The notes below the pieces were generated by a model. The model was given only the letters and a program-made list of their open reading frames with translations. It was not told where the DNA came from and made no database searches. The translations under genes and the position numbers were made by a program. A stretch of DNA of 64,000 nt. It comes from a virus. Where the stretch lies: positions 32,001 through 96,000 of IMG/VR virus record IMGVR_UViG_3300036861_001052, one strand, 5' to 3'. This document shows, piece by piece, positions 1 through 64,000 of the stretch; position 1 is the stretch's first letter, and the number at the start of each line of letters is the position of its first letter.

Positions 1-32
1 CCGGGATCTCTCTGTCCACGAAACACGCTCAT
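1..32 (-). CDS. 5' fragment of a gene running off the window (MSVFRGQRDP...)
   Basis: ATG at 32 preceded by AAAGGAG RBS and an AT-rich promoter-like stretch (about 60-100). Confidence 0.5.
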   Translation of the reverse strand, partial: MSVFRGQRDP

Positions 33-125
33 CGGGTCTCTCCTTTGTCGCTCGCTCGGGGGCTTAAAAGCTCCTGCCTAATTTATACACTACACTCTAC
101 TCGGCCGAAAGTGCGGCGTTTCCGC

Positions 126-1676
126 TCACCGGGAAACGTAGCTGCGGCCCTCGGAAACGTCGACCTTCCCCGTCACCCGAAGCGTGACGTTGTGGAGTCC
201 CGGCGAGAGCGGACCCGAGTCGTAAAGAAGCTGATTGTAGATGTCGGAGACGCTGACGAGAGAAACCGGCGCGCCGTACGCGCCGCCGTCGAGCGAGAAC
301 TCCACCGAGCCGTAGGTGGGGCCCATGGTCCCGAAGATCATGAATCGCGTCGTCGCCCGCGCCGGCGCAAGCTTCCAGGTATTGCCGTTCGTGGAGCTAC
401 GGGCGGACGAGTACTGGAAGGAGCCCGTGGTCGGATCGGCAATGCCGACCTGATCTTTGATGAGGCTCCAGGCACCGACCCGCACCACGTCCACGTTGAA
501 GGACCAGCCGTGATACTGATCCCAGTACTGCCTCCTGTAGACGTTCGAGCGGATGTCGCGAAGGACGTCGAGGTAGATGCCGAGCGGGTTCACGGTCGCT
601 TCGCTCCTTGCGACGAGCTGCGCCGTCGGCAAAAAGGCTCCGGCCTCGCCGACCTCTCCCGTTGAATAGAGGTAGACGACGTGGGGGCCGCCGTCGAGCG
701 CGGCTTGCTGCATGGCCGTTCTGAGGTTCTGTTCCCACTCGGTACGAATCGGAATATCCGTCCAGTTACCGACGTCGCCGTGCCACGGCCGCGAATCGAT
801 CGATTGCGCGATGGTCTTGAACGAATACACCGTGACGCCCGTCATTTGCCTGTAGACGCGATCGCCCGCGAGGACCCACGCGTACGTATTGGGCGCCGCG
901 GTCGGCGACTGGATGATGCCGGCGTACGCGCTGACGGCGTTGGTCCCGAGCGCCGTCACCTGCGGGGACTGCCAGTTTCCTTGCACCAGGTACGGATCGA
1001 CGCCGAGCGTGTCCTGGCACTCGGTAACGATGGCGTTCTTGTGGGTCACGTCCCAGACGCCGTTCAGGCCAGAGTTATCGTCGTAGAGCGTGATCACGGG
1101 CTTGCCACCGACCTTGAAGTGCTGGTCGTCGCTCATGAGCGGCCCGAGGCTTGCCACGAACGTCGTAAAGTTGGCAAAGTTTCCACCCCGAAGACGCCCG
1201 GGGACCGGCTGATCGGCGTCCGTCGCCATCGCGAGCTGCTCGATGAGCAAGTGCCACTTGATTCGAGGCTTGTACGGGCTTGCGAGATAGCGCTCGATGA
1301 CATGGAAGGCGTCGCTGATTACGAGACCCCCAGGAGGGGGACTCGCGGCCCAAAGCGCGGCCGTCGGAAACCAGAAGAATTCGATGACGCCCACGCCGCC
1401 GTCACTCAAGGACTTCAGCATCGCGTCGCAATTGGCTTGCTCCGTCGGATCGTCGCCGCTGTTCCACATGTGCCAGTAGGGAGTTCCGTCGGCGCGGATT
1501 GCCTGCCTGTGGCCGTATTTGCGCTGGTAGCCGATCGAATCCGGATCCCCGTCGATGACCATGATCTCGGATCCGGGAGCGACGAAGTTCGTCGAATTGA
1601 TGAAGCACCCCGCCCAGCACGACGCCATGAACACCGCGTCCGTGTAGTAGCGTCGATTGATCGCGTATCTCGCCAT
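126..1676 (-). CDS. Glycoside hydrolase GH99/WbsX-like TIM-barrel protein with C-terminal carbohydrate-binding-like domain
   Basis: Start re-called at ATG 1676 (MARYAINRR); motifs GVGVIEFFWF, HFKVGGKPVITLY, YLYSTGEVGEAG resemble GH99-like/WbsX; C-terminal GPTYGSVEFSLDG...GLHNVTLRVTG beta-sandwich. Confidence 0.6.
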   Translation of the reverse strand: MARYAINRRYYTDAVFMASCWAGCFINSTNFVAPGSEIMVIDGDPDSIGYQRKYGHRQAIRADGTPYWHMWNSGDDPTEQANCDAMLKSLSDGGVGVIEFFWFPTAALWAASPPPGGLVISDAFHVIERYLASPYKPRIKWHLLIEQLAMATDADQPVPGRLRGGNFANFTTFVASLGPLMSDDQHFKVGGKPVITLYDDNSGLNGVWDVTHKNAIVTECQDTLGVDPYLVQGNWQSPQVTALGTNAVSAYAGIIQSPTAAPNTYAWVLAGDRVYRQMTGVTVYSFKTIAQSIDSRPWHGDVGNWTDIPIRTEWEQNLRTAMQQAALDGGPHVVYLYSTGEVGEAGAFLPTAQLVARSEATVNPLGIYLDVLRDIRSNVYRRQYWDQYHGWSFNVDVVRVGAWSLIKDQVGIADPTTGSFQYSSARSSTNGNTWKLAPARATTRFMIFGTMGPTYGSVEFSLDGGAYGAPVSLVSVSDIYNQLLYDSGPLSPGLHNVTLRVTGKVDVSEGRSYVSR

Positions 1677-1684
1677 TGGTGGGC

Positions 1685-2827
1685 TCAATTCAGAAAGTAG
1701 TTCTCCAGGCGAAAGAGCTCGTCGTCGGCCACGGCGCCCTGAAACCCCACGAACTCGCTCATGTCGTTGTTCGCGAAGTTTCCCGTCGCCGTCGTCTTGA
1801 TCGCCGAGACGCACATCTGGTTCAGGGTGAGACTATTGGCGATCGAGTTCGTGCCAGGGACCATGCTCTCGCCGCCGATGATGTCCAGGCCGTTCACACG
1901 CAGGCGCGACTCGACGCCGTCGAACCGCCAGATGATGACCTTCGGCCCGACGTTCGGGAAAGCGAGCGAATCGATGGTCGAGATCACGCCCGCCGTCGCA
2001 CGGCGAGTGATCTGATAGCTGTTCACGCCATTTTTCTTCAGCGTGACGTTCGGGAGGTTTGCGTCCGTCGTGTTGCCGGCGCACCAAAACGCTGTGGTGC
2101 CGACCTGATTGATGACGATGCCGCCGATCCAAATCACCGTGAACGGTGAGTTCAATCCGCCGAAGACCGTATTCCACACGCCCGAGGTCGTGTTGAAGTG
2201 CCGGTCGCTCGTCCCGTTGTACCGCATCGTCTGAAGGCCACCGGGCCCGGCGACGATGATCTGCGGGCGCTGCCCGGCTGTGACGTTCGCGAGATCGTTC
2301 GTGGCTGGCACGACCTTGTCGACGACGACGCTTGCGATGGCCTTGTAGGTGTTGTTTGCGTGATACGTGCCGGACGGAAAGTTGATCGTGATGCCCGTGC
2401 CGCTGATGAGCACCGTCGCTGCGGTGGTGCCGGTTTGATATGCGGGCCCCACTCCGTTGTTGAGCCACACGCTGTACGTTGCGACGCCGCGCGCACCGTC
2501 ACTGGTAGTGACCAAGATCCCGAGCGGCTGCTTGAGCGTTCCCGTGAACGTGACCACGGGTGGCGAGGTGCCGCCTGCTACGGGCGTCCCGCCGATGGTG
2601 TACGAGCTCTGGTCGTACCAGAAGCGAAGCGTCGCGCTCGTGATCGCGCTCGGTGACAGCGGCGACGAGTCGACCGAGAATGTATTGACCCCGAGGCAGC
2701 TTCGGCCGATGCCCCCGCACCGGACGCCGCGCGGAGCGTGGCGCGGAGCGTGCCGGGGCGCGCGAAGCGCCCGGTCGAGGTCTCGGAGTTTCGGGCTCCG
2801 TAGCTCCTGGTCTAGGGTCGCGAGCAT
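1685..2827 (-). CDS. Beta-rich virion appendage protein with LamG/concanavalin-like domain
   Basis: Start at ATG 2827 (or GTG 2839 overlapping the upstream stop); RFWYD..., FTVIWIG, LRVNG, MSEFVGFQGAVADDELFRLENYF typical of phage LamG-like fibres. Confidence 0.55.
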   Translation of the reverse strand: MLATLDQELRSPKLRDLDRALRAPRHAPRHAPRGVRCGGIGRSCLGVNTFSVDSSPLSPSAITSATLRFWYDQSSYTIGGTPVAGGTSPPVVTFTGTLKQPLGILVTTSDGARGVATYSVWLNNGVGPAYQTGTTAATVLISGTGITINFPSGTYHANNTYKAIASVVVDKVVPATNDLANVTAGQRPQIIVAGPGGLQTMRYNGTSDRHFNTTSGVWNTVFGGLNSPFTVIWIGGIVINQVGTTAFWCAGNTTDANLPNVTLKKNGVNSYQITRRATAGVISTIDSLAFPNVGPKVIIWRFDGVESRLRVNGLDIIGGESMVPGTNSIANSLTLNQMCVSAIKTTATGNFANNDMSEFVGFQGAVADDELFRLENYFLN

Positions 2828-2835
2828 CGCGGGCC

Positions 2836-3882
<1,047 letters not shown>

Positions 3883-5250: not shown

Positions 5251-5251
<1 letters not shown>
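4511..5251 (-). CDS. GT-A fold glycosyltransferase (family 2-like)
   Basis: IIVVPTRG, YVLTLEDD (DxD-like), VNGIGMGCALWR, TQDLYFC, VRVGH. Confidence 0.85.
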
Positions 5252-6933
<1,682 letters not shown>

Positions 6934-7333: not shown

Positions 7334-9163
7334 TCATGCCGCGAACGCCGGGACCTTCAACTGGGTCCCGCCGATGTTGATATCCAAAAACCGGTCCACC
7401 GTTGCCGGCACGGCAGCCCCAGCGCCCGCGTTCGCGGTCGTGCTCGTGCCGTTCAGGCGAAGATTGATGCCGTTGAAGCGCCAGGCCGGTAGGCCTCCAG
7501 TCGAGTACTGAATATAGCCGTTCACGGCGTCTGCAGTCGGGTTCGTCTGAGCGTTGGCGACATAGATGATGCCGTCGCCCGTATTCGCCGGAAGCTCCGT
7601 CGTCGACACGCCCGAGAGCTTGACGAGCGAAAGCACTCGCCTGTCGAGCGCGACCTCGGTGGCCTCGACCATTGCCAGCGCTCCGGCCGAAGTATCGTCG
7701 ACATTCAAGCTCATCCTGACACCGCCCATGAGCCCGTTTCCGTCGGGGCCGCCACCAGATAGGAGGAGAATGCCGCCGTCCCCGTCGGCCCCTCCCGCGG
7801 TAACCGACTGCGCGTGTATCCAGAGCCGCTGCGCGGCAGGCCCGAGGCTCGCCTGTTGAATGATGTTCGGGTTTGCGACGGTCCGTATGAACGACAGCTC
7901 CGCCGGCGTAAACTCCGACCTGGTCGAGTTTATCGTGAGCCGCGCCGTTCCGGTGATGTCGACCTGGAATGTCGTCACACAGCGGAGCTGAAGTGTCGGC
8001 GTATGCACGTCGTCGCCGATCTGAAGGCTGTTGGTCGCGGCATCGGCGACGAAGCCCTGCACGTCGAGCGTGTTCGTCGCGTTCCGGTAATAGAGGATCC
8101 AGCCCTTCGTGAGCCTGATCGTTCCGGTGCTTGCGACCGGAGCGGCGAGGCCTCCGCTGCCGTGAATCGCCAGCACCTCTCCGACCTCGAGGGCGTTCGC
8201 AACCTGCACGTTGTAGGTGCCGCTCGGAAAAATCGTCAGCCGATCGGTCGGCGGCGAGCTCGAGGACGCCCGGAAGATGATCTTCTGAGGAACGCTTCCC
8301 GCGGCGACGGCACCGGACACCTCGAATGAAATCTCCGAGCTCGCGACATAGTTCGCGCCGTCGAATCCGGCGGACACGACTCTCGCGAGGCTATCGCCAT
8401 TGGCGACCGTCGTTTGCGCGACGCGCGTGCCCCGGCTCTTCATCCCGAGGAAACGCGCTGCCGCGGTGTCCGCCGAGTGCTGCGCGGCAATGATTCCGCG
8501 CACGGTCGCAGACCCCGTCTGGACGGAAACGACGCTGCCTGCGGCTTCGCCGTTCGTGACGGCGCTGCCGGCGTAGTAGCTCCCGGTCGTGAAGAGATTC
8601 TCGGCCTGGAAGTTCGTGGACCACGTCGGGACGCCGCCGATCGTGATGATGGCCTGGCCATTCGTGCCGCTTGGCGTGATGCCGATCTGGAGCTGTTCGT
8701 TCGCGCCGGGATTGAGCACGGTCGTCGTGATGAGCGAGCCCTCGGCGACCTTCGGATCTAGATAATTAGGCGTCGTGTCGGCCGCCGTCACGGCGACCAG
8801 GTTCGACGCGATGCCCGTCGGGCCCGTAGATCCCGTGGGGCCAGTCGGACCGGTAGCGCCCGTCGGTCCCGTGGGGCCAGTCGGGCCGTCCGTTGGCCCC
8901 GTGGGCCCGGTCGCGCCCGTGTTCGCGGCGCCGCCCGGAGTTCCCGTGGGGCCGCTCGGCCCGGTCGGCCCCGTCGCGCCTGTTGCGCCCGTGTTCGTGG
9001 CGGCTCCGCTCTGGCCCGTGGGGCCCGTACTGCCGCTCGGCCCCGTCGCGCCCGTCTGTCCCGTCGCTCCGGTCGGACCCGTCCCCGCCGTCCCGCCGCC
9101 GAAACCGGGCGGGACACGCGCGGTGCCGCGCCCAGATGTTCCGGTGCGATCTCGGATGGTCAT
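7334..9163 (-). CDS. Collagen-like fibre protein 3 with long beta-rich tail-fibre-like region
   Basis: N-terminal GXT repeats, then [23 protein letters not shown]...GFDG segments typical of phage fibres. Confidence 0.8.
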
Positions 9164-9171: not shown

Positions 9172-11483
<2,312 letters not shown>

Positions 11484-11485
11484 GC

Positions 11486-48512: not shown

Positions 48513-48515
48513 GCC

Positions 48516-48797: not shown

Positions 48798-49123
48798 TGG
48801 GCTGCGGTTGCTCGGCGCCTCTCGGTGACTCGATGAACACCTACCAGGGCCCTGTTCCGCCCGGCGTGCCGAATCCGTTCACGCCGATGCTGCACTCGTT
48901 TCCGACGCGCTACCACGGCCCGATCTACACGCGCCCCATGAACCAATTCCCCTGGCGCGAGCGCCCGAACGACTTCGCGCTCGAAGAGGGCATGCAGGGA
49001 CTCGGCGCGGACGACGACAAGGCAATCCCGCCGGCGTGGAAGATGGCCGTCGCCGCGGGCCTCGTGGGCATCACGATCTGGGCCGTCGTCAAATGGGCGG
49101 ACGCCCAGCCAAGGAGGGCGTGA
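48797..49123 (+). CDS. Tail-anchored protein
   Basis: MGCGCSAPLG...MQGLGA, then TM. Confidence 0.72.
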   Translation: MGCGCSAPLGDSMNTYQGPVPPGVPNPFTPMLHSFPTRYHGPIYTRPMNQFPWRERPNDFALEEGMQGLGADDDKAIPPAWKMAVAAGLVGITIWAVVKWADAQPRRA

Positions 49124-52302: not shown

Positions 52303-52652
52303 TGTCGACGCTCATCTACTCGAGGTGGCGTCCGGACGAAGGTGGCTACGACTACTTTCAGTCCTCGCTCCGCCAGAACATCAACGACGATCTGCCCGCG
52401 CCCGAGCTCGTGGCCTCGAAGATCGGCGTGCCGTCGATCGAGGCGGGGCGGCCCATTCCGAATGACTCGGTGCCCATCGGAAGCGGCGAGGTGGCAGTGG
52501 GCCTCGTCGCCCCGGTCGACAGCTCGCGCATCGTCCGGAGGACGCGGTCCCTTTCCGGGAGCGATCCCATGAGCGTCTACAAGAGCCCGTGGTTTTATCT
52601 CGGCGGCGCGATCGCCGTCGGCCTCATCTATATGGTCATGAAGGACAAGTGA
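52302..52652 (+). CDS. Tail-anchored protein
   Basis: YDYF motif; C-terminal TM + KDK. Confidence 0.7.
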   Translation: MSTLIYSRWRPDEGGYDYFQSSLRQNINDDLPAPELVASKIGVPSIEAGRPIPNDSVPIGSGEVAVGLVAPVDSSRIVRRTRSLSGSDPMSVYKSPWFYLGGAIAVGLIYMVMKDK

Positions 52653-53218
52653 TGACGGTCCGGGTCATAGAAACCAAGGACGTCGCTACGAAAACGTTCG
52701 AGACGTTTTACGATCGGCCAAGCAAGAGGGAGATCCCGCTCGAGTTCGGGTGGCCGAAGGAGCTCCAGGAGGTCGGCGTCGGCAAAGCGGAGATGTACAC
52801 CTCGAACAAGTGGAAAAAGAGCCGCTCGGACTTCGAGGACTACAAGCACGTCGCCGAGGGCCTTCGCACGGTGTACGCCGAGCCCGGCTTTCTGCGAGTT
52901 GGCGCGCACCCGGCGCGCATGATGCCGGTCTACGGACCGATGGCGAGCTTCGAGGAGCCGATGCCGAAGCACTTCGCGAGGCTCGGGCCGCTTCTCGGTG
53001 TGCAGGTCAGGCTCTACGACCGGGACGACAAGGGTGAGCTCTACGTGCCGGGCGGCGACGATCGGGTCTACGAGGTCGAGATTGCGCGCGCCTGGCTCGG
53101 CTCGGCCAGGCACCCAGGCACCAAAGAGACCTTCCTCTTCGTGTACACTCCGGATGGCGTCCACATGATCCTCACGGGAGACAAGCTCTCCATCGAAAAG
53201 GACGGCATTGCCGGGTGA
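52652..53218 (+). CDS. Soluble putative virion core protein
   Basis: Within the structural operon, no TM; function inferred from context. Confidence 0.6.
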   Translation: MTVRVIETKDVATKTFETFYDRPSKREIPLEFGWPKELQEVGVGKAEMYTSNKWKKSRSDFEDYKHVAEGLRTVYAEPGFLRVGAHPARMMPVYGPMASFEEPMPKHFARLGPLLGVQVRLYDRDDKGELYVPGGDDRVYEVEIARAWLGSARHPGTKETFLFVYTPDGVHMILTGDKLSIEKDGIAG

Positions 53219-55143: not shown

Positions 55144-55289
55144 CCGACGCCGACGTGAAGAAGGCCCTCCTGGCGATCGCCGCCGAGCTCAAGCGCCAGG
55201 AGCACGCGGAGATCCGCCTCGGCATCATCGGTCTCATCGGACTCGGTCTCATCGGAACCGCTGGCTACTTCCTCTGGAGGAAGCGGTGA
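55140..55289 (+). CDS. 49-aa tail-anchored protein
   Basis: ATGA/GTGA overlaps on both sides; TM + WRKR. Confidence 0.65.
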   Translation: MTDADVKKALLAIAAELKRQEHAEIRLGIIGLIGLGLIGTAGYFLWRKR

Positions 55290-56335
55290 CCTACAGCGGG
55301 CTAGGATTCGGCTTCTTCACGGAGCCGTGCGGCATCAACGTGGAAGGCACGGATCATTTCGTGGCCGGCCCGACCTATCAGGCGCTCGAGACCGTGGCGC
55401 AGGACACCGTCACCGTGCTCCTTTCGGGGCACGGCAACGTGCAGCTCTGCGGAAATCTCCTCCCCTACGTGGCTCCGGCTCCAGGAGTAGCGGCCGTCTT
55501 CGGGGCGCACGAGCAAACGGCGCGGCTGATTGCAGCGACCGTGCTCGCTTCGCTCATGGAGCAAGAGAGGAGGAAGGCCCACGGGACTCGAGCCTCGACC
55601 CGCATGCTCGCCGAGAGGCTCGTCCCGGAGATCGTGCAGACGCTGACGCACAACGGAGACCCCGCGGCCTGTCAGATCGAGTTCGAGGCGTCGTTTCGGA
55701 ACTGGTCGGGCCTCTCGGCGCTGAAAGTGCCGACGACGGTCTCGAAGACCGGCTGGTGCGAGAAGAGCCTCGCTCTGCCGTGGGATAGTGCCGGCCACAT
55801 CCGGTCGTGCGAGGCGCAAGCGATCTGCAAATCTGTCATCGGCGCGGGCGGGGCGATCCAGTACGTCACGAGCCCTCCGCCGGCTCCGACCGATCCGCGC
55901 GTGGCCGCGAGCGCGCCCGGGACGACGCCGTCGCCGCCTCCGACGAAAGCGGAGATCGAGGCGGAAGTCCGCCGGAAGATGGTGGCGAGCGGAGAGACCG
56001 TAGCGGACCGAGAGAACAAGCAGGAGTTCACAGAGCTCGCGGCGTACTTGAAGGCGCTCGGAGAGGCGCGGCGCTACCTCACGATGGCGCTCGGGATCCC
56101 GGACAAGTCGACCGACGCGGCCGTAGCCGCGGCGCTCGGTCACGAGGGGATCGCCACGGCAGAGGTGCTCGACTGGTTTTTGGGCTGTAACTTCGAGCCC
56201 GGCTGCTTTCGCGAGCAGATGAATCTCTCGCTCGGCGAGGCGAGGCGCTACTCGAGAGACACGCGCGCGAAGATCGCTGTCGCCGTGGGAGGAGTCCTCG
56301 CCGTGGGATTTCTCCTCTTTAGGTGGAGACGCTGA
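55286..56335 (+). CDS. Cys-containing tail-anchored protein
   Basis: Starts MTYSGLG; TM + RWRR. Confidence 0.72.
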   Translation: MTYSGLGFGFFTEPCGINVEGTDHFVAGPTYQALETVAQDTVTVLLSGHGNVQLCGNLLPYVAPAPGVAAVFGAHEQTARLIAATVLASLMEQERRKAHGTRASTRMLAERLVPEIVQTLTHNGDPAACQIEFEASFRNWSGLSALKVPTTVSKTGWCEKSLALPWDSAGHIRSCEAQAICKSVIGAGGAIQYVTSPPPAPTDPRVAASAPGTTPSPPPTKAEIEAEVRRKMVASGETVADRENKQEFTELAAYLKALGEARRYLTMALGIPDKSTDAAVAAALGHEGIATAEVLDWFLGCNFEPGCFREQMNLSLGEARRYSRDTRAKIAVAVGGVLAVGFLLFRWRR

Positions 56336-56694
56336 TGCCGCCGCCACCACTCTTGAAGGCGCCGAGCTGGGAGCAGGGGCGCCCCGCGCGAAACCTCGCG
56401 TACGTTGCCGTGCTTTTACAGGAAGCACACATCGACCCGAAGAAGATCCCGAAAGGTCAGGTCATCTTTGCGCTGGCAACGCCGTACGAGCAGCGCGGCG
56501 TGACGGGCAGAGACATCGAGCGCTGGGCGCTCGAATGCGATCCGGCTAAAAAGCCCGCCTGGGATCCGGTCGAGTGCTTCCGAAAGAAGGCCCGGGCGGC
56601 GATGGCGCCACGGCCAGGGCTCGGCACCAAGGTCGCGCTCATCGCCGGAGCCTCGTTTGTGGCGGCTTTTGGCCTTGCGCGCTGGCTCCGGTAG
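56335..56694 (+). CDS. Tail-anchored protein
   Basis: PGLG directly before TM + RWLR. Confidence 0.68.
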   Translation: MPPPPLLKAPSWEQGRPARNLAYVAVLLQEAHIDPKKIPKGQVIFALATPYEQRGVTGRDIERWALECDPAKKPAWDPVECFRKKARAAMAPRPGLGTKVALIAGASFVAAFGLARWLR

Positions 56695-56815: not shown

Positions 56816-59272
56816 GTGAGAGGCAAGCACAAAGCGTACGGTCGAGCGTTTCCAATCCGGGAAGCGGACGTCGGCTCGTACAAGGTAGCGCGTCACCGTC
56901 CCTATCGAGCGAATCCGATGGGCGTGACGACGCTGTCGAGCGTCAACGGCCCGGGCGCGTATTCCGCGCGTGCGGCCTCGAGTGGGCTTTCCCGCGCCGA
57001 GCGTCTGCGGCGCGCGCGCCGGCTCATGGAGAACCGAAGCATGCAAGGACACAAGGTGCACAGGGCCAAGTTCGTACGGCGCATGAAGGCAAACAGCGGT
57101 CGGATGACCTCGAACGCTGCCCGACGCCGCGCGGGCAAACGCCTCGCTGCGTTTCAGGCAGCTCGGCGTCGTGGGCTTTCGAAGGAAGCGGCGATGCGGA
57201 GCGCGTCCCGGAAGTTTCCGAAGAGTCGCCGGCGTGGCTACCGCCGAAACGAGGGACCGGCTCAGGTCGCTTCCCCCGCCTACCGGTCGGGCCACGAGCG
57301 GATCTACGGGAAAAAGGCTCAGCGAAGGCGCGCCGCCGCGGCAAAGCGGAAAGCGCATCGCGCCGAGGTCGCCGCGCGTAAGCGCGCTCGTAAGGCTGCC
57401 GCTCGCGCGAAGAAGCGCGCAGCGATGACGCCGGAAAAGCGCGCTTCGCTCCGAAAGCGCCGCCGCAGGGCGAGCTTTCCTAAGCAGTACAAGAAGGTGC
57501 GGGGCCGAAGGGGCAAGATGCACCGAGTGCGAGTGGCGTACGGACCGTACCGCCGCGCGCGCCTTTCCGATCCGAGGTCAGGCCGAAAGCGCCTCTCCTA
57601 CACCTATCGAGGCAAACGCGGCAAACGCCGCAAGATTCCGCAGTGGGCCGTTGCCGGAGCAGTCAGTGCGCGCGACTACAAGACGTCGAGCGTGTACGGG
57701 CGCGCCCGGGAGCGGATCGCACGGCGTCGTAAACGTGCTGCCGCTCGCGTAGAGCGCAGCGGAGATGCGTTCGTTCCGAACGCGGGAGCAAGAAAAGTGG
57801 CAAGACGAAGAAAGCGAAAAGGGCACAAGCGTTCCCGCCGGGGACGTCGCAAGGTGAAACGGACGCGCGGTCGCGCGCGGCGCCGATCGGCGGGTCACAC
57901 CGTCCGCAGGCGCAAGAGGCGCAAGTCAGCGAGCCGCCGGACAGCCCGGAAGCACCGTGCGAGCCCGCATCGCCGGAAGAAGCGTCGTGCGCACGCGAAG
58001 AGGCGTTCCACGCGCCGCCGGTCCAAGCGCCGGTCGCACCCGCGTCGGATCGGTCGCCGCAAGGTGAGGCGCCTGAGAAAAGGCATCTACCTGGTCGCGA
58101 ACCGCCGTCGCCGTCGCTCGCGCCGCCGCTACGAGGAAAACCGCAGGGTCCGCCGGCATCGTCGTCGGAAGCTCGCGGCAAATCCGCGTCGCAGGCGTCG
58201 CTCGCGGCGTCACGTCGCAAACCGCAGGCGCCGAACGCATCGGCGTCGGAGCTACCGTCGTAACCGGAGCTACCGCCGTAACGGCTTCATGGGCGACTTG
58301 AAGACGCTCGCGAAGATGGGCTTCCTGGTCCTCGGCGGCTTCTTCCTCCACAAGGGGATCACGGGCGGAATCATTCGGGCGCTGACGTCTACGGACGCCT
58401 CGACCGGAGCGATGACGTTCGCCTCGCTGCCGATGATCGGAGCCGACGGCAAACCGACGGTTCTCGCGACTTGGCAGAAGCCGCTCGTCGGAGGCCTGTT
58501 CGGCGGTCTCGGCATCTTCGGGATCTCCAAGCTCCCGATGAAGTCGGACACCCGGAATGCGCTGTCAGCGGGCGTGGTGACGTCGTTCCTTCAGAGCCTC
58601 GTCCACACGATCCTGACTGTCGCAAACCAGCCGGAGGTCCTCTCCTATCTCGAGGGTTACCAGAACAGCGCAGCGTACTCGCTCCGCGGTACCCGAGGGA
58701 AACGGCGCCGTCACCCGATGCGAGGCCTCGGCGTCGCACGGAACGCGACGTCGATCATGCCGCACTACGCACCTGTCGGACAGTTCCAGCAGGCCGCAGC
58801 CGGCATGGGCGAGTACTTCGCGGCTCAGAGCGGCATGGGTGAGTACTTCGCGGGTCCCGGCGTCGAAGGCGTCGGTCACTACGAGAAGGCTGGCCCCTTG
58901 GCGCTTCAGCCCTCGACGAGCCGGATGGGTAACCTTCCGATCGACGACGGCATTCGCCCCGACTCGAACCTCGACCACGTGATGGATCTCGCGGAAAGCG
59001 CGGCCGGTCTCGGCCAAGGTTTCCGTCAGGCCGCCGCGGGAGTCGGGGCGGGCCCGGGTTACCGGCAGGCAGCTGCCGGTATGGGCGAGTACTTCTCGGC
59101 TGCCCCGCAAGACGGCGGCTACAAGGAGTTCTCGGTCCCGACGCAGTCGCAGTGGATCCCCTCGGGGCCCCTCTGGGCCGGCACGATGAGTGCCGACGCT
59201 GCGTACACGGAGAGCGAGCTCCCGGCTGGGATCCTCCAGGGTCCTGGCGGAAACGGAGTGCTCTCGGGCTGA
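56816..59272 (+). CDS. Protamine-like Arg/Lys-rich core protein fused to a membrane domain and GMG-repeat tail
   Basis: About 490 aa extremely R/K-rich, then 2-3 hydrophobic helices, then repeated (AA/QS)GMGEYF; lies directly upstream of the capsid gene. Confidence 0.8.
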   Translation: MRGKHKAYGRAFPIREADVGSYKVARHRPYRANPMGVTTLSSVNGPGAYSARAASSGLSRAERLRRARRLMENRSMQGHKVHRAKFVRRMKANSGRMTSNAARRRAGKRLAAFQAARRRGLSKEAAMRSASRKFPKSRRRGYRRNEGPAQVASPAYRSGHERIYGKKAQRRRAAAAKRKAHRAEVAARKRARKAAARAKKRAAMTPEKRASLRKRRRRASFPKQYKKVRGRRGKMHRVRVAYGPYRRARLSDPRSGRKRLSYTYRGKRGKRRKIPQWAVAGAVSARDYKTSSVYGRARERIARRRKRAAARVERSGDAFVPNAGARKVARRRKRKGHKRSRRGRRKVKRTRGRARRRSAGHTVRRRKRRKSASRRTARKHRASPHRRKKRRAHAKRRSTRRRSKRRSHPRRIGRRKVRRLRKGIYLVANRRRRRSRRRYEENRRVRRHRRRKLAANPRRRRRSRRHVANRRRRTHRRRSYRRNRSYRRNGFMGDLKTLAKMGFLVLGGFFLHKGITGGIIRALTSTDASTGAMTFASLPMIGADGKPTVLATWQKPLVGGLFGGLGIFGISKLPMKSDTRNALSAGVVTSFLQSLVHTILTVANQPEVLSYLEGYQNSAAYSLRGTRGKRRRHPMRGLGVARNATSIMPHYAPVGQFQQAAAGMGEYFAAQSGMGEYFAGPGVEGVGHYEKAGPLALQPSTSRMGNLPIDDGIRPDSNLDHVMDLAESAAGLGQGFRQAAAGVGAGPGYRQAAAGMGEYFSAAPQDGGYKEFSVPTQSQWIPSGPLWAGTMSADAAYTESELPAGILQGPGGNGVLSG

Positions 59273-59447: not shown

Positions 59448-61028
59448 ATGGCAAAACTGACGAACGTCAGAGAGCGTGTGCATCACGCGGACGTTCGGTG
59501 AAAGCGAAAGCTGGTGCCCCTCGGCGGTAACGCCGGGGTGATAACTGGGTGAATCAAACCGTTTCGTGATGAGAATGAGAACTTCAGACACAGACATCGC
59601 CTGGCTTGCTGGAATCGTGGACGGCGAGGGCTGCTTCTCCGTGAAGCGTCCCATCGTTCGCAAGACCTACAAGAAGGGGCGAGTGACGAGCTACCAAGTG
59701 TGGCTGGTCGTCTGTAATACGTCCGAGCCGATGGTACGTCGGGTCACGGAGATCTTCGGATCTCTCGGGATCGGGCACCAGCCGGTGAGGCGCGTCTGGA
59801 AGGGAAAGAAGGCAACTCGGTGGCAGTACTGGGTGCACGTCGCGCGAAAGCACGAGCTCTTGCGTCTGACGGAACTCCTCCTGCCTTTCCTCGTGGCCAA
59901 AAAAGACGAGGCCGAGATCGTGCGCTGGTTCCTATCGAGGGCTTGCAGCACGAGGCAATACGTTCCCACTCTTCTCGATCGTACCGCGCTCGAAGCGATG
60001 GCCACGATCAAGCGACACGGCGGGGAAGCCCCTGCTGAGGTGCGAGAGCTCCTTCGCGAGGTAATCCCGAGCCAAGCCGTTTCTGGGATCCGTGCGGCCC
60101 ACGGATTGGAGACGGAAGGCGTAGAGACTAGGTCGGTGACTCCCAAGAATAACCCGACCCACGAGTGCCCGGCGCCCCTCCACTTGGTGGGGTGATGAGA
60201 TAGCCCGACACTCCGGGAAACCGGAGAGCCCGCATAAACAGCGGGCATGACAGAAGCAAGCAGCCGTTTTACGACACGCTCATCCGAACCTCCGGTCTCG
60301 GCGGTTCCATCCCCAAGGTGAATCAGCGGACCTCGCTGTTCACGAACCAGGCTCGCCAGGACGACATCAACGCCCTGACGAACCTGCCGAACGGTTCGAC
60401 GCTCCCGTCCGACCAGAGCCACGTGACGCTCGCGCTTCGCGTGTTCATCTGGTTCCGCAATCCGCAGATCCGCGCAAGCGGCTTTGCGAACGGTGCGATC
60501 AAGAACAACGGCGACTTCTCCCAAGCGGGAGCGGCGGCGTTCTTCTCGCAAGGCGGAGTCGACCCGAACGGCGCGACCGCGGGCCCCGGCGCCTTCAACT
60601 ACCCGGGCTCGATCGAGGACGTCTACCGCCTGTACTGGCAGTCGGAAGAGCAGCTTCACTGGAGCTACGGCACCGGTGACAAGTTCTCGATCACGAACAT
60701 GCCGACGAAGTACTTCCCGGACGGCGGTGGCCTCTGGGGTGACCTCGGTGGCTCTTCGGATCTCATCCACTTCAACAACGGCACGCCGGACCACACGGCA
60801 ATTCTCCGGCTCGCGCGCGCGATCCTTCTGCCTCCCCGGCAGAACATCAAGTGCGCCGCCGAGATCGTGCCCTTGCCCGACGGTGGAAACGCCCAGATCG
60901 CTGGATCGACCGTGACCGGCAACGGCCGGAACATGCTGTCGCTCCAGGACAACCTGAACGCGACCGACGGGATCAACAAGGTGATTCAGTTCACCTTCGA
61001 CGGTCTCTTCGCCCGCGACGTTCAGTAG
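59448..61028 (+). CDS. Putative major capsid protein (jelly-roll type), spliced: 59448-59483 + 60261-61028, 267 aa
   Basis: AAAGGA RBS + ATG 59448; joined reading MAKLTNVRERVH|QPFYDTLIRT...LF...TNL..GSTLPSDQ; exon 2 has no in-frame ATG after TAG 60201; the capsid identity is inference from motif pattern and context. Confidence 0.7.
59484..60260 (+). ncRNA. Group I self-splicing intron (777 nt)
   Basis: Exon ends in U, intron ends in G; IGS GCTGGTGC (59510-59517) pairs GCAU (P1, U-G) and CAGC (P10); Q-like AATCCCGAGCCAAG, R-like GTAGAGACTA, S-like GAGATAGCCC; P9 CTCCGG-GAAA-CCGGAG. Confidence 0.9.
59566..60195 (+). CDS. Intron-encoded single-motif LAGLIDADG homing endonuclease
   Basis: DIAWLAGIVDGEGCFSV, LVVCNTS, LLPFLVAKK; 3' end reads through the intron core. 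Confidence 0.92.
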   Translation: MMRMRTSDTDIAWLAGIVDGEGCFSVKRPIVRKTYKKGRVTSYQVWLVVCNTSEPMVRRVTEIFGSLGIGHQPVRRVWKGKKATRWQYWVHVARKHELLRLTELLLPFLVAKKDEAEIVRWFLSRACSTRQYVPTLLDRTALEAMATIKRHGGEAPAEVRELLREVIPSQAVSGIRAAHGLETEGVETRSVTPKNNPTHECPAPLHLVG

Positions 61029-61139: not shown

Positions 61140-62132
61140 ATGGCAAGTTGGGAACAGGTCATTCGAGACCTGCAGAACACGGCAGGCTTTGCCGCCGCAA
61201 AGGCGAAGGAAGCGATCGACAAGGCAGGCCGAAACGAGAGCGCCCTCGCGCTCGTCCGGCAAGAGCTCGAACGCGAGCAGCGCTCCATGCAAGCGCTCGC
61301 CGACGCGCTCGAAAAGGTCCAGGGCCGCGGCGCGGGCTACGGTAACGGTAACGTCGGCGTCGACGAGCGCGTGCGCTACATCGAGTCGATCCCGGGTCGC
61401 AGGATCCCGTTCGACTTCGTCGTGACGATTCCTATTTCTTCGAACTCGGTCTCGCAGGTCCAGGGCACGAAGACCGTGAGCCAGGACGGGCCGTTCGTGG
61501 CGGTTGCGCGCTACGCGGCGTTTCAGTCCGCGTTCCAGTTTCAACGGGTAGACCCCGTCACGCAGGAGAAGGCGGTCTTTCAAGGACGCTCCTTCGGCCG
61601 TTTTCGTCCGATGCACTCCATGTGGGACCTGAACGATGCCTCGACCGGCGTCTTTCAGCCGACGACCGGCATCGCTCAGCCGGGCACGGGCGCGCCGATC
61701 GTGGCGGCTCCCTCGAACATGTCGTCCTTCCGCACGATGGAAGGCGACTTCATCATCCAGATGCTGAATCAAGGCGCTGGCTACCCTCGCGACAATCAGG
61801 ACGGCGGCATTCCGAGCGCCTGGTACTCCGAGAGCATCAACAGCCCCTTCCAGCTCGGAGCCTTGGACTTCTTCGAGCGCGGCGAGACGATCCAGTGGAA
61901 GGTCACGCCGACGCACGTCAATAACCCGCCGGCAGGTAACCTTTCGGGTTACGCTGCGGGTGGCGTGTTCCCGTTCCTCGCGAGCCAGTACGACGTGCAC
62001 GAGGGCATCAACGACCAGCTCGATCCCGAGGCAACGAGCGATCCCATCACGAGGCTCCCCGACGGGATCTTGTGGATAGGGATGCACGGGATCAAGATCG
62101 TGCAGCCCCCCGGGCCGGTGAGGCTCACCTAA
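61140..62132 (+). CDS. Second putative capsid protein (N-terminal coiled coil + beta-rich domain)
   Basis: GGAGG RBS; IPFDFVVTI...TVSQDGPFVAV...FFERGETIQWKV...IGMHGIKI beta-strand pattern. Confidence 0.55.
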   Translation: MASWEQVIRDLQNTAGFAAAKAKEAIDKAGRNESALALVRQELEREQRSMQALADALEKVQGRGAGYGNGNVGVDERVRYIESIPGRRIPFDFVVTIPISSNSVSQVQGTKTVSQDGPFVAVARYAAFQSAFQFQRVDPVTQEKAVFQGRSFGRFRPMHSMWDLNDASTGVFQPTTGIAQPGTGAPIVAAPSNMSSFRTMEGDFIIQMLNQGAGYPRDNQDGGIPSAWYSESINSPFQLGALDFFERGETIQWKVTPTHVNNPPAGNLSGYAAGGVFPFLASQYDVHEGINDQLDPEATSDPITRLPDGILWIGMHGIKIVQPPGPVRLT

Positions 62133-62140: not shown

Positions 62141-63046
62141 TTGACCCTCCGATCACATTTGACGCCGCGGCAGGTCAAGGGGCTCGGCCTCGGAGCCCCG
62201 TCGCCGCCGGCGGAGCCCGTACGCGTGCTCGATCCGTGGCGAGGCGATCCGCCTCCTCCTCAGCCCTACGAGGGCGAGGGGATCAGCCACGGCTGCGACG
62301 CTTCCCGGGTCCAGCTCGCCGGAGGGGCGCTGAACACCCTCCTCGTCCATCCCGAGGTGACGCCCTTCGAGCAGCTCTACCGGCGCCTGCCCGAGGAGGG
62401 GATGTTTCTCGACTCGGTCGGCCCGGAGAATCCGTTCACGTTCGAGCTCGGGGCGTTCCGCGTGCCGGACACGTTCACGCTGCTCTTGTTCGATTTGAGG
62501 CCAGACATCTATCGCTTCAGCGGCGTGGATCCGGGAGACACGATCCCGGTCGAGGCGCGGCGCTTCAGCTCGGTTCTCGGCTTTCAGATCACGGTCGACC
62601 AGCGCCAGCCCGCCAATCTCCTCTACCAGCTCGATCCGGCGCCGATTCAGACGTTTCCCGAGGCCTTCACGAATCCGATCGGCGCTCCCGGCGAGCTCCC
62701 GCCCGCCATCGCGGCGGCAATCGGTTTCCAGAACGGATCGCGCTTCAACCTCTCTCAGGCGACGAGCGTCGCGACGGCTTCGGGCGCCGGAGACCAGCTC
62801 CAGCCACAGAGGCCGACCCGGTACGGGCCCTTGTCCGTGCCGTTTACGATGTACATCCGGCCCGGGCAGACGTTTCAAGTCCGCTGCGTGATCTTCAATC
62901 CGGTGCCGAGCCCGATTGCGTTCATCGAGTACGACATCGCTGGCATGCTCATGCCGGACACGTGGGTGACGACGATGACCGAGTGCATGAAGCCGCTCTC
63001 GAACGCTTCGCACGGTCCAGGCTCTCTCGGGGGAGGTCCACGGTGA
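62141..63046 (+). CDS. Third putative jelly-roll structural protein
   Basis: TTG start behind AAGGAG; KGLGLG near N-terminus; FRVPDTFTLLL...YIRPGQTFQV...YDIAGMLMP. Confidence 0.55.
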   Translation: MTLRSHLTPRQVKGLGLGAPSPPAEPVRVLDPWRGDPPPPQPYEGEGISHGCDASRVQLAGGALNTLLVHPEVTPFEQLYRRLPEEGMFLDSVGPENPFTFELGAFRVPDTFTLLLFDLRPDIYRFSGVDPGDTIPVEARRFSSVLGFQITVDQRQPANLLYQLDPAPIQTFPEAFTNPIGAPGELPPAIAAAIGFQNGSRFNLSQATSVATASGAGDQLQPQRPTRYGPLSVPFTMYIRPGQTFQVRCVIFNPVPSPIAFIEYDIAGMLMPDTWVTTMTECMKPLSNASHGPGSLGGGPR

Positions 63047-63048
63047 CT

Positions 63049-63173
63049 TCGGTGAAGGAGGCCAGCCGGCCGCCGTCGCGCTTCCAGCGGGTATGGACGA
63101 ACGCACCCCTATCGGACATGGGGGCTGTCGAGTCTTACTCGGGAAACGGCGGACGGCTGGCCTCCTTCACCGA
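63049..63173. repeat. 28-bp inverted repeat (1 mismatch) enclosing 69 nt
   Basis: TCGGTGAAGGAGGCCAGCCGgCCGCCGT (63049-63076) versus ACGGCGGaCGGCTGGCCTCCTTCACCGA (63146-63173). Confidence 0.85.
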
Positions 63174-63185
63174 GCTCGAGGCGTC

Positions 63186-63953
63186 ATGGTGATGCAGAGC
63201 TACGTCGAAGGCGGCGCCTCCCAGATGGGGACGGCGTGGGACGAGATCGGGATCTTGCCTGCTCCCCCCGGAACGTCGCTCGGCCAGATGGACGCGATGA
63301 GTCTCTTCTCGGAGGTCTCGGACGCGCTCCGCCTGCGGCCCATCGGTGTCGTGACGCCCTGGGCAGCACGCGTCGGTGATCTCGAGTGGGAGGACATTCC
63401 CCATCCCGACACGAACGTGATGCTCTGGGAGCTCACGGACGCGGCCATCAATGCCGTGCCGGAGGTGACGTTCGGGAGTCCCTTGCCGTTCGTGGGGATC
63501 GTGACGTCGCGGCCGATGAGCGTCGCAGAGACGCGAAAGATGTGGGAGGGGACAGCCTACGCTCCGTACGAGACGCAAGCCGTCTACCGGCAGGACGACG
63601 CGAAGGATCCGCCGACTGCGCTCTTCTTGCACTGGGGCGAGCGCATCGACATCGCGAAGCTTCCGAAGGAGGTCTTGCTCCTCGGCCCCCGCGCTTCGGC
63701 CGCCGCGGGAAGCCTCGTCTTCGCGGCTCAGATCCCAGCGCAGAATTCGACCACGCGCGCAGCTCCGTCGAGCTCGTTTGCTTCGGTCCTCGCGCGGCAG
63801 GCGCCGCTTCCGCCGGAGCCGCCGCCGAATCCCACGCCGGGCCCGATCCCTCTCGGCCCTGTCAAAGAGGACAAGATGAATCTCGGCGTGCCGATCGCCG
63901 TAGGGCTAGGGGCAGCGGCTCTCGGCTTCTTGCTCTGGAAGAGGAAGAGGTAA
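63186..63953 (+). CDS. Tail-anchored protein
   Basis: ATG 63186 behind GAGG; Pro-rich linker, TM + KRKR. Confidence 0.7.
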   Translation: MVMQSYVEGGASQMGTAWDEIGILPAPPGTSLGQMDAMSLFSEVSDALRLRPIGVVTPWAARVGDLEWEDIPHPDTNVMLWELTDAAINAVPEVTFGSPLPFVGIVTSRPMSVAETRKMWEGTAYAPYETQAVYRQDDAKDPPTALFLHWGERIDIAKLPKEVLLLGPRASAAAGSLVFAAQIPAQNSTTRAAPSSSFASVLARQAPLPPEPPPNPTPGPIPLGPVKEDKMNLGVPIAVGLGAAALGFLLWKRKR

Positions 63954-63958
63954 GGCGC

Positions 63959-64000
63959 ATGTATACGGGCGTTGGACAAGACTCTGGCATGGTGTTTCTT
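63959..64000 (+). CDS. 5' fragment of the next structural gene (MYTGVGQD...)
   Basis: ATG after the previous stop, begins with a G-V-G motif like its neighbours. Confidence 0.5.
   Translation, partial: MYTGVGQDSGMVFL

What the first reader, a model, noticed from the sequence alone, without database searches (positions are those of the whole stretch)
1..64000. Apparently a tailless, membrane-containing virus of at least 64 kb with a DnaB-type replisome
Seen: about 15 membrane-anchored structural proteins, beta-rich capsid-like genes of about 270-330 aa and collagen fibres, with no HK97 capsid, portal, terminase or tail gene recognised. Known: PRD1, PM2, P23-77 and SH1-like viruses have roughly 10-31 kb genomes. 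Inference: an undescribed large lineage of single-jelly-roll-type viruses. GC-rich, TCGA-rich composition hints at a Myxococcota-like host (weak). No packaging ATPase is visible, so it would have to lie outside the window.
Basis: inference. Interest (0 to 1): 0.78.

Follow-up and report, generated by a model that had tools for sequence, protein, structure and literature searches.

The report
Large tailless membrane virus, no packaging motor
The window is the middle of a complete 138-kb genome of an uncultured bacterial virus that has no gene of ordinary tailed phages and no DNA-packaging motor, and instead seems to wrap protamine-coated DNA in a protein-studded membrane under a jelly-roll shell.

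Summary
The window is 46% of a complete, terminally redundant 138.4-kb virus record. It carries 13 tail-anchored membrane proteins (23 of 41 genes in the whole late block), four collagen-like fibre genes, DnaB with a loader, and three adjacent beta-rich genes of 267 (spliced), 330 and 301 aa.

No terminase, portal, HK97 capsid or tail family was found in this genome or in 17 related records of 38-182 kb.

An 818-aa protein with a 40% Arg/Lys N-terminal half fused to a membrane domain is conserved in 18 of 18 relatives.

Best reading: a large, undescribed lineage of tailless, membrane-containing bacterial viruses that assemble around condensed DNA. It works like the archaeal virus SPV1 rather than PRD1 or P23-77.

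A Myxococcota host is unsupported. The scan found this lineage before on other DNA, and those follow-ups reached similar readings.

The parts
2836..3873 (-). Collagen-like fibre protein, 345 aa. It has the N-terminal anchor domain of about 125 aa that the fibre paralogs share.
   Evidence: Pfam Collagen 30.2 bits; paralogy of the N-terminal domain
5251..6933 (-). Collagen-like fibre protein, 560 aa
   Evidence: Pfam Collagen 72.1 bits; seven G-X-Y runs
7334..9163 (-). Collagen-like protein, 609 aa; lacks the shared N-terminal domain
   Evidence: Pfam Collagen 28.5 bits
9172..10641 (-). Collagen-like fibre protein, 489 aa
   Evidence: Pfam Collagen 92.6 bits; G-X-Y runs of 22 triplets
10638..11483 (-). 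Core protein of unknown function, 281 aa, conserved in all four whole relatives compared
   Evidence: tblastn 65/56/29/35% identity to G001/G003/G016/G007; no Pfam or PHROG family
12038..15468 (+). Two glycosyltransferase genes: GT2+TPR (692 aa) and GT2+methyltransferase (451 aa). Likely glycosylation of fibres or virion; this is an inference.
   Evidence: Pfam. The Glycos_transf_2 hit on W12038-14116 is below cut-off. On W14113-15468, Glycos_transf_2 scores 29.7 bits and Methyltransf_24 46.2 bits.
29985..30746 (+). DnaC/IstB-like AAA+ helicase loader, 253 aa
   Evidence: Walker A motif; AAA_5 25.9 bits and IstB_IS21 E = 0.0015; one window protein hits phrog_50 'DnaC-like helicase loader' at 1.7e-13
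30743..32182 (+). DnaB-type replicative helicase, 479 aa
   Evidence: DnaB_C 1.1e-84, DnaB 1.3e-26
35401..35994 (+). 197-aa protein related to the N-terminal anchor domain of the fibre proteins
   Evidence: blastp to g048 (3e-15) and g046
40981..44801 (+). Three core genes: 252 aa; 177 aa, acidic with coiled coil; and 842 aa with a long charged central region and a Pro-rich tail. Candidate scaffold or size-determining proteins; this is an inference only.
   Evidence: Conserved in G001, G003, G002, G016 and G007; sequences; no Pfam or PHROG family
46146..56694 (+). Run of genes for tail-anchored membrane proteins: a C-terminal helix followed by a Lys/Arg tail. Includes three with weak peptidoglycan-binding hits.
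   Evidence: PG_binding_1 below cut-off; synteny in relatives
46841..47383 (+). Transglutaminase-like (papain-fold) protein, 180 aa. Candidate maturation protease.
   Evidence: Transglut_core 23.2 bits against a cut-off of 23; 85/70/74/68/49% identity in five relatives
56816..59272 (+). 818-aa protein. The first ~490 aa are 40% Arg/Lys (protamine-like), followed by hydrophobic segments and a Gly/Met-rich C-terminal domain. Proposed DNA-condensing core protein tied to the membrane.
   Evidence: Translation; composition; 18 of 18 relatives keep an in-frame basic extension of 277-604 aa with 27-45% R+K
59448..59483 (+). Exon 1 (12 codons) of the candidate major shell protein
59484..60260 (+). 777-nt intervening sequence, a probable group I intron. 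It carries an endonuclease ORF (W59617-60195) with a LAGLIDADG-type motif.
   Evidence: Absent from 21 of 21 relatives at exactly this codon boundary. Rfam Intron_gpI scores only 18.4 bits, E = 0.058. The motif was read by eye and is recalled.
60261..61028 (+). Exon 2 (255 aa) of the candidate major shell protein; predicted single jelly roll
   Evidence: 573 homologous clusters; model pLDDT 74.5; fold matches; best-conserved gene
61140..62132 (+). 330-aa protein: N-terminal 60-residue helix plus a jelly-roll domain. Second shell or vertex protein candidate.
   Evidence: 77 representative clusters; model pLDDT 76.8; fold matches
62141..63046 (+). 301-aa conserved soluble protein of unknown fold; third member of the conserved trio
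   Evidence: Syntenic in 19 of 19 related loci; alignment A5; no PDB or profile match
63186..63953 (+). 255-aa tail-anchored membrane protein following the trio

Best explanation
The window is the central part of the complete, about 138.3-kb, terminally redundant genome of an uncultured bacterial virus. It belongs to a widespread, apparently undescribed lineage with complete genomes of 111-179 kb. The lineage is not a tailed phage.

Proposed virion and assembly (inferred):
- The DNA is condensed by a conserved 818-aa protein. Its N-terminal half is protamine-like, and its C-terminal half sits in a membrane.
- The nucleoprotein is enclosed by a lipid membrane. This membrane holds about 20 tail-anchored viral proteins whose short basic tails face the DNA.
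- The membrane is covered by a shell built from the conserved trio: the 267-aa spliced jelly-roll protein, the 330-aa helix-plus-jelly-roll protein, and the 301-aa protein.
- Glycosylated collagen-like fibres attach through a shared N-terminal domain.
- A transglutaminase-fold protease probably matures the particle.
- A membrane-anchored SLT transglycosylase and weakly PG-binding membrane proteins would serve entry. An amidase endolysin would serve release.
- No packaging NTPase is conserved, so the genome is most likely enclosed during assembly rather than pumped into a preformed capsid. That is how Sulfolobus polyhedral virus 1 is described.

Shown: gene content, conservation, the absence of hallmark families, the predicted folds, and the intron.

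Inferred: the existence of the membrane, the shell role of the trio, DNA condensation, and the assembly route.
For: 1. Virus record, complete. Direct terminal repeats of 127 bp; CheckV 100%.

2. Phage-type accessory genes outside the window: endolysin (Amidase_2 + PG_binding_1), SLT, GroES, RNase H and Acb2/Tad1.

3. No Terminase_6N, TerL_ATPase, Phage_portal or Phage_capsid in 0 of 17 related records, 6 of which are at least 90% complete. Terminase_6N and Phage_capsid were also absent in the six-frame search of this genome.

4. Whole-proteome Pfam returned only 8 families for 67 window proteins and 23 families for 109 outside proteins. None is a head, tail or packaging family.

5. P-loops. 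Only DnaB, the loader and an AAA+ protein carry credible Walker A motifs. The AAA+ protein is missing from a 96%-complete relative. DnaB is the only P-loop protein kept in all five genomes compared.

6. 23 of 41 late genes are tail-anchored, against 13 of 189 elsewhere.

7. The polybasic membrane protein is kept in 18 of 18 relatives.

8. The trio is syntenic in 19 of 19 related loci. The 267-aa protein is the best-conserved full-length protein against G001, G003 and G002 (91, 86 and 85% identity).

9. Predicted folds.

10. Literature on SPV1. [quoted passage not shown] It lacks a packaging ATPase (PMC8812541, passages read).
Against: - Only two proteins could be folded. An HK97-fold protein, a portal or an unusual ATPase among the other unassigned core proteins is not excluded.
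- The two PHROG family lists were cut at 25 of 43 and 25 of 57 families, so weak structural hits could be hidden.
- No lipid, particle or expression data exist.
- TNF/C1q-like jelly rolls are also typical of fibre heads, so the 267-aa protein could be a receptor-binding protein. Its very high conservation argues against this.
- No sequence-level link was found among the three trio proteins, or between them and the PM2 P2 family.
Confidence: 0.58

Rival explanations
1. A true, if distant, member of the vertical single-jelly-roll viruses (realm Singelaviria, kingdom Helvetiavirae: P23-77, SH1, HHIV-2). It would have grown five- to ten-fold in genome size and lost or replaced its packaging ATPase. 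This is essentially the first reader's reading.
Confidence: 0.12
2. A virus with a membrane but no icosahedral jelly-roll shell, for example an enveloped, pleomorphic, ovoid or brick-shaped particle. The jelly-roll proteins would be spikes, lectins or matrix proteins rather than capsomers.
For: No packaging motor was found. Membrane proteins are extremely abundant and there is a polybasic core protein. The best matches of the 267-aa protein include TNF/C1q-type and fibre-head domains.
Against: The 267-aa protein is the most conserved gene and has no fibre shaft. Foldseek's top rows for it are double-jelly-roll capsid proteins. The nearest named clusters by language-model features are PM2 P2 and PRD1 P3 capsid families, at only 0.76-0.77, which is a lead only.
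Confidence: 0.18
3. A very divergent tailed phage (Caudoviricetes) whose terminase, portal, HK97 capsid and tail genes have drifted beyond profile detection.
For: Genome size, terminal repeats and accessory genes (endolysin, anti-defence genes, a homing-endonuclease intron) are typical of large phages. The automatic taxon labels of look-alike Atlas clusters say Uroviricota.
Against: 0 of 18 genomes hit any of four hallmark Pfam families. No P-loop protein besides DnaB is conserved, and a terminase needs one. The 'portal' PHROG hit is a NUDIX domain. The 'lytic tail protein' hit is an SLT domain. The ten largest unassigned proteins hit no PHROG.
Confidence: 0.06
4. Not a virus: a large plasmid or a vesicle-transmitted element that encodes membrane proteins.
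For: There is no classical capsid or packaging hallmark. Membrane proteins are many. A giant tyrosine-recombinase-like protein and a DDE transposase are present.
Against: No conjugation, partition or plasmid replication family appears in the complete Pfam lists. A core endolysin is conserved in all four whole relatives compared. Terminal repeats are present in five members. A strongly conserved late module includes jelly-roll proteins. Only 4 hits were found among the genomes of 185,579 species.
Confidence: 0.06

Closest known systems
Sulfolobus polyhedral virus 1 (Portogloboviridae)
   Different: SPV1 infects a hyperthermophilic archaeon, has a 20-kb circular genome and is non-lytic. This virus has 138 kb, bacterial-type DnaB and peptidoglycan hydrolases, collagen fibres and a protamine-like core protein. 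No sequence similarity was found. The fold scores are too weak to claim kinship.
P23-77, SH1 and HHIV-2 (Helvetiavirae, realm Singelaviria)
   Different: Those viruses have genomes of roughly 16-31 kb and an FtsK/HerA-type packaging ATPase next to the capsid genes (recalled). Here the genome is 138 kb and no such ATPase exists in it or its relatives.
PRD1 and PM2 (Tectiviridae and Corticoviridae, double-jelly-roll phages)
   Same: Tailless, inner membrane with many small viral membrane proteins, virion-associated transglycosylase, and spikes with collagen-like or jelly-roll parts (recalled). Foldseek's top rows for the 267-aa protein include PRD1 P3 and PR772. Atlas features point to P2/P3 capsid clusters at 0.76-0.77.
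   Different: The model is one jelly roll, not two. Profile comparison with the PM2 P2 family gives a probability of 0.1%. Prokaryotic double-jelly-roll viruses have genomes under 20 kb (PMC8812541, passage) and a packaging ATPase.
Adenovirus and giant-virus style cores and fibres (comparison by function only; recalled)
   Same: Arg-rich core protein condensing DNA, a cysteine-protease type maturation enzyme, and glycosylated collagen-like fibres.
   Different: Those are eukaryotic viruses with double-jelly-roll capsids and packaging ATPases. No homology was tested or claimed here.

Membership tests
Caudoviricetes (tailed phages) | Large terminase subunit (P-loop ATPase plus nuclease) | tested here: not met
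   Terminase_6N was absent from this genome. Terminase_6N and TerL_ATPase were absent from 0 of 17 relatives. No terminase family appears in the whole-proteome Pfam scans. No P-loop protein other than DnaB is conserved.
Caudoviricetes (tailed phages) | HK97-fold major capsid protein | tested here: inconclusive
   Phage_capsid is absent from this genome and from 0 of 17 relatives. The two proteins folded are jelly rolls, not HK97. Most core proteins could not be folded.
Caudoviricetes (tailed phages) | Portal protein and tail genes | tested here: not met
   Phage_portal 0 of 17. The only 'portal' PHROG hit is a NUDIX domain and rings in 14 of 14 control genomes. The 'lytic tail protein' hit is an SLT domain. 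The PHROG lists were truncated.
Helvetiavirae / Singelaviria (P23-77, SH1) | Two vertical single-jelly-roll major capsid proteins | tested here: inconclusive
Helvetiavirae / Singelaviria (P23-77, SH1) | FtsK/HerA-type genome packaging ATPase | tested here: not met
   FtsK_SpoIIIE matches only the DnaB P-loop at 14.8 bits. 0 of 17 relatives exceed the cut-off. Motif scan.
Bamfordvirae prokaryotic viruses (PRD1, PM2) | [quoted passage not shown] | tested here: inconclusive
   The model of the 267-aa protein aligns as one jelly roll. Foldseek E >= 0.03 to D13 and P3. hhalign against the PM2 P2 family gives probabilities of 0.1-0.5%. No P2 or P3 Pfam family hit.
Portogloboviridae (SPV1) | Single-jelly-roll VP4/VP10-type shell proteins | tested here: inconclusive
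Portogloboviridae (SPV1) | No packaging ATPase; DNA in a nucleoprotein core under a lipid layer | tested here: met
   Absence of an ATPase. A conserved polybasic membrane protein is the candidate core protein. Tail-anchored proteins. The lipid layer itself is not testable here.
Portogloboviridae (SPV1) | Archaeal host, about 20-kb circular genome | tested here: not met
   The genome is 138 kb. It has a bacterial DnaB and peptidoglycan amidase and transglycosylase.
Group I intron with homing endonuclease | Precise interruption of a gene that is continuous in relatives | tested here: met
   21 of 21 relatives read ...RERVHQPF... without a break. Here 777 nt lie between H12 and Q13.
Group I intron with homing endonuclease | Group I catalytic core | tested here: inconclusive
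   Rfam Intron_gpI scores 18.4 bits against a gathering score of 50, E = 0.058. There is no hit at the gathering threshold. Splicing was not observed because no RNA run was available.

The most novel reading that the evidence does not exclude
These genomes are a realm-level new lineage of large bacterial viruses (111-182 kb, common in soil-type metagenomes). The lineage would have invented, independently of PRD1-like, SH1-like and tailed phages, a particle made of a jelly-roll shell over a protein-packed membrane around protamine-condensed DNA, assembled with no packaging motor at all. That would make it the first bacterial counterpart of the 'build around the nucleoprotein' strategy, so far known only from small archaeal viruses such as SPV1, and by far the largest tailless prokaryotic virus genomes.
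Probability: 0.4. Interest if true: 0.9.

Novelty: new variant of a known kind. Interest (0 to 1): 0.78.

Why it matters
Known tailless, membrane-containing viruses of bacteria and archaea have small genomes. Prokaryotic double-jelly-roll viruses are under 20 kb (PMC8812541, passage), and large prokaryotic virus genomes are taken to be tailed phages.

A widespread group of 111-182-kb bacterial viruses without terminase, portal, HK97 capsid or any packaging ATPase would have three consequences:
- It would break that rule.
- It would show that hallmark-gene classifiers mislabel such genomes.
- It would give a test case for two questions: how 140 kb of DNA is enclosed without a motor, and where jelly-roll capsids come from.

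The protamine-like membrane protein and the tail-anchored protein set are concrete handles for experiments.

I found no description of such a lineage in five full-text searches. That library lacks most subscription journals, and supplements were closed, so a prior description cannot be excluded.

Tried and rejected
- Rfam at gathering threshold on the whole window found nothing.
- tblastn of the 330-aa protein against 50,697 phage records found no match. The 567-aa protein after DnaB matched only a hypothetical protein of a Thermoanaerobacterium phage, over 19% of its length.
- Sequence searches of the PDB with profiles of the three trio families returned only chance-level rows.
- BFVD returned nothing at E <= 0.001.
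- The Atlas returned only unnamed virus clusters, plus weak leads to PM2 P2 and PRD1 P3 at 0.76-0.77, and it holds no structure for either query.
- hhalign among the three trio families and against the PM2 P2 family gave probabilities of 0.1-0.5%. Neither paralogy nor P2 membership is shown.
- The 'portal protein' PHROG hit was rejected as a NUDIX domain. The 'lytic tail protein' hit was rejected as an SLT domain.
- The GKS motif of the 154-aa core protein was rejected as a Walker A because relatives do not keep it.
- The AAA+ ATPase at genome 127806-129353 was rejected as the packaging enzyme because a 96%-complete relative lacks it.
- Complex prediction on the 267-aa protein with residues 70-330 of the 330-aa protein gave 'no answer' (score 0.01). 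This is no evidence either way.
- The look-up of sequencing runs listed no RNA holder, so expression and splicing could not be examined. The two runs holding the whole stretch are labelled soil metagenome and may be the source of this DNA.
- Host. The g148 family occurs in four MAGs: two labelled Pirellulales, one Pseudomonadota and one Pseudomonadales. Of 401 Pirellulales genomes searched, only the centre genome matched. The host is unresolved, and no CRISPR-spacer matching was possible.
- The six-frame search for Transglut_core missed the weak hit that hmmscan finds.
- Supplements of papers were not consulted.

Full report
WHAT THE DNA IS. The window is bases 32001-96000 of a single contig of 138,414 bases. 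The first 127 bases of the contig recur at its end. The collection classes it as a virus record with direct terminal repeats, and CheckV rates it 100% complete. GC is 65.4%. No tRNA was found in the window. I called 233 genes with a codon-bias model trained on the genome itself; they cover 87% of the sequence.

CHECK OF THE OBSERVATION.
- DnaB is certain: W30743-32182, DnaB_C 1.1e-84. It is preceded by a 253-aa AAA+/IstB-like protein with a Walker A motif. One window protein hits the PHROG 'DnaC-like helicase loader' at 1.7e-13.
- Four window proteins pass Pfam's Collagen cut-off, with G-X-Y runs of up to 22 triplets. A fifth lies outside the window.
- Four of these five share an N-terminal domain of about 125 residues (48-73% identity). 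That domain is also found in three non-collagen proteins. This looks like a common attachment domain.
- In the late block W45880-74770, 23 of 41 genes end in a hydrophobic helix followed by a Lys/Arg tail, against 13 of 189 elsewhere (Fisher p = 5.6e-12). Thirteen lie wholly in the window.
- The three beta-rich genes exist at 267 aa (spliced), 330 aa and 301 aa.

THE SPLIT GENE. Exon 1 (W59448-59483, 12 codons) and exon 2 (from W60261) are separated by 777 nt. This insert holds a 192-aa ORF with a LAGLIDADG-type motif; I read the motif by eye and recall it, and Pfam did not name it. In 21 of 21 related loci the gene runs ...RERVHQPF... without a break. Rfam's group I model scores only 18.4 bits (E = 0.058). 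The interruption is therefore shown; its class is only probable.

ABSENCE OF TAILED-PHAGE AND PACKAGING GENES.
- Pfam was run on 206 of the 233 proteins. The two alignment-mode lists were complete, at 8 and 23 families. They held no terminase, portal, capsid, tail, DNA polymerase or primase family.
- PHROGs was run on about 187 proteins. The ten largest unassigned proteins hit nothing. The other two lists were cut at 25 of 43 and 25 of 57 families, so weak hits below about 1e-8 and 1e-11 were not seen.
- Two suspicious names were traced. 'Portal protein' (phrog_15528) matches a 135-aa NUDIX protein and rings in 14 of 14 control genomes. 'Lytic tail protein' (phrog_2013) coincides with an SLT transglycosylase domain in a tail-anchored 218-aa protein.
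- Six-frame searches of this genome found no Terminase_6N and no Phage_capsid. FtsK_SpoIIIE touched only the DnaB P-loop at 14.8 bits.
- A motif scan found credible Walker A sites only in DnaB, the loader and an AAA+ protein of the Cdc48/FtsH type.

RELATIVES.
- The 330-aa protein has 77 representative clusters among 1.84 billion proteins.
- Exon 2 of the 267-aa protein has 573 clusters at 90% identity. None of the 120 listed carries a Pfam domain, and they sit on contigs of up to 134 kb.
- IMG/VR holds 17 related records of 38-182 kb. Four more have terminal repeats, at 112, 125, 136 and 179 kb.
- None of the 17 has Terminase_6N, TerL_ATPase, Phage_portal or Phage_capsid. None passes the FtsK cut-off.
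- I compared the whole genomes G001, G003, G016 and G007, plus the fragment G002, with this genome by tblastn. About 30 genes are shared by all four whole genomes. They include DnaB, the amidase endolysin, a protein with a conserved HEFGHAxDF zinc-protease motif, two glycosyltransferases, the 252- and 842-aa proteins, most of the membrane-protein block, the polybasic protein, and the trio.
- The AAA+ protein is missing from G003, which is 96% complete. The loader was not found in G016. The GKS motif of a 154-aa core protein is not kept.
- DnaB is thus the only conserved P-loop protein.

FOLDS.
- With a 44-row alignment, the 330-aa protein gave a model of pLDDT 76.8: a 60-residue N-terminal helix plus a beta sandwich. 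Foldseek found nothing at E <= 0.001, but its weak rows are jelly-roll capsid proteins and lectins.
- VIA-align on residues 85-327 gave:
- Exon 2 of the 267-aa protein gave a model of pLDDT 74.5 and pTM 0.75. Foldseek's top rows are VACV D13, SPV1, PRD1 P3, PR772 and the SGIV capsid protein, at E = 0.03-0.1.
- The 301-aa protein could not be folded.
- Profile comparisons show no sequence link among the three proteins or to the PM2 P2 family.

THE CORE PROTEIN. W56816-59272 is one open frame of 818 codons. Its first 492 residues contain 152 Arg, 46 Lys and only 16 Asp/Glu. They are followed by hydrophobic segments and a Gly/Met-rich domain. In 18 of 18 relatives examined, the same domain is preceded in frame by 277-604 residues with 27-45% Arg+Lys. 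A polybasic domain tied to a membrane domain, conserved across the lineage and encoded just upstream of the trio, is the best candidate for the agent that condenses the DNA and links it to the membrane. This role is inferred.

MECHANISM. Taken together, the findings are: no motor, a conserved DNA-condensing membrane protein, about 20 tail-anchored proteins with basic tails, a transglutaminase-fold protein (23.2 bits against a cut-off of 23; 49-85% identical in five relatives), jelly-roll proteins, and fibres with a common anchor plus glycosyltransferases. The most economical model is a tailless particle assembled around a nucleoprotein-membrane core and coated by a jelly-roll shell with fibres.
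- Entry would use the membrane-anchored SLT protein, and perhaps the weakly PG-binding membrane proteins.
- Release would use the Amidase_2 endolysin.
- Replication would use DnaB and its loader with host polymerase, since no polymerase or primase family was found.

COMPARISON WITH KNOWN VIRUSES.
- SPV1. The ICTV profile (PMC8459092, read in full) describes single-jelly-roll VP4 and VP10, an inner lipid layer with sub-capsomer proteins, and a nucleoprotein core. Passages of PMC8812541 state that SPV1 and FLiP lack packaging ATPases, and that prokaryotic double-jelly-roll viruses have genomes under 20 kb. This virus works like SPV1 in these respects. It is bacterial and seven times larger, and it shows no demonstrable kinship.
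- Helvetiavirae. Membership in this kingdom, now placed in realm Singelaviria (PMC12714852, passages), fails on the ATPase.
- PRD1/PM2 group. Membership fails on the double jelly roll (inconclusive) and on the ATPase.

HOST AND HABITAT. Peptidoglycan hydrolases and DnaB point to a bacterium. The four MAG contigs with relatives carry two Pirellulales labels and two Pseudomonadota-type labels. Among 401 Pirellulales genomes, only the centre genome matched. The host is open and nothing points to Myxococcota. The two runs holding the whole stretch are labelled soil metagenome and may be the source.

PRIOR WORK. Five full-text searches turned up no description of such a lineage. The library lacks most subscription journals, and supplements were closed. 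The scan itself has met this lineage before on other genomes. Its follow-up notes reach a similar reading, with SPV1 as the closest known virus. I reached that comparison from my own fold lists before reading those notes. They are AI notes, not independent evidence.

VERDICT.
- The safest claim, at about 0.75, is 'a large, complete, non-tailed, membrane-protein-rich bacterial virus genome without any packaging NTPase, in a widespread undescribed lineage'.
- 'Jelly-roll icosahedral shell over an inner membrane' stands at about 0.5.
- Kinship with P23-77/SH1 stands at about 0.1.

Noticed in passing
genome 115849-119688 (-), outside the window (L004:2849-6688): A 1279-aa protein. Pfam integrase models match only residues ~63-111 and 455-526; about 750 residues are unassigned. 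It is conserved in G001, G003 and G016 and was not found in G007. It could be a recombinase or resolvase for genome ends or multimers.
   Followed up: partly
window 53215-55143, 55286-56335, 62141-63046; genome 96345-97172 and 97622-98584; also inside window 56816-59272: Several late proteins carry a G-L-G-type motif 5-25 residues from the N terminus. The polybasic protein has MRGLG and repeated GMGEYF motifs. These are possible cleavage sites for the transglutaminase-like protein at W46841-47383. Enrichment was not tested.
   Followed up: no
genome 31013-31564 (-), just before the window: A 183-aa core protein with an invariant HEFGHAxDF motif (zinc-metalloprotease type) in all four whole relatives. 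It is preceded by a 154-aa Cys-rich, zinc-ribbon-like core protein. No family was assigned.
   Followed up: partly
genome 14834-15490 (-): A tail-anchored 218-aa protein with an SLT lytic transglycosylase domain, conserved in G001, G003 and G016. It resembles a virion-borne cell-wall-opening enzyme.
   Followed up: partly
genome 127806-129353 (-): A Cdc48/FtsH-type AAA+ ATPase of 515 aa (AAA 4.4e-31). It is present in G001 and not found in G003, G016 or G007 by tblastn. It is an accessory gene, not a core gene.
   Followed up: partly
genome 22961-24160 (+): A DDE transposase (DDE_Tnp_1 3.6e-21 with a SWIM finger), absent from all relatives compared: an insertion sequence inside a virus genome. 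Near-identical copies in a bacterial genome could name the host. Not searched.
   Followed up: no
L050 and L053 (relatives), between the homologues of the 267-aa and 330-aa genes: The gap between the two genes is about 1.5 kb and 3.5 kb longer than in the other 17 loci. These may be further insertions, perhaps introns or homing endonucleases, in the same module.
   Followed up: no
window 32716-34419: The 567-aa protein after DnaB shares a roughly 105-residue domain (45% identity, 4e-17) with a hypothetical protein of Thermoanaerobacterium phage THSA-485A. Only about 22-30% of its length is conserved in relatives.
   Followed up: no
genome about 1820-4174, outside the window: Earlier notes of the scan describe a Cas7/RAMP-like gene with a 1.5-kb five-base repeat array, read as a VIPR guide array (preprint 10.64898/2026.04.26.720920: outline, abstract and passages read). 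SPV1-type viruses likewise carry mini-CRISPR arrays against rival viruses (PMC8459092).
   Followed up: no
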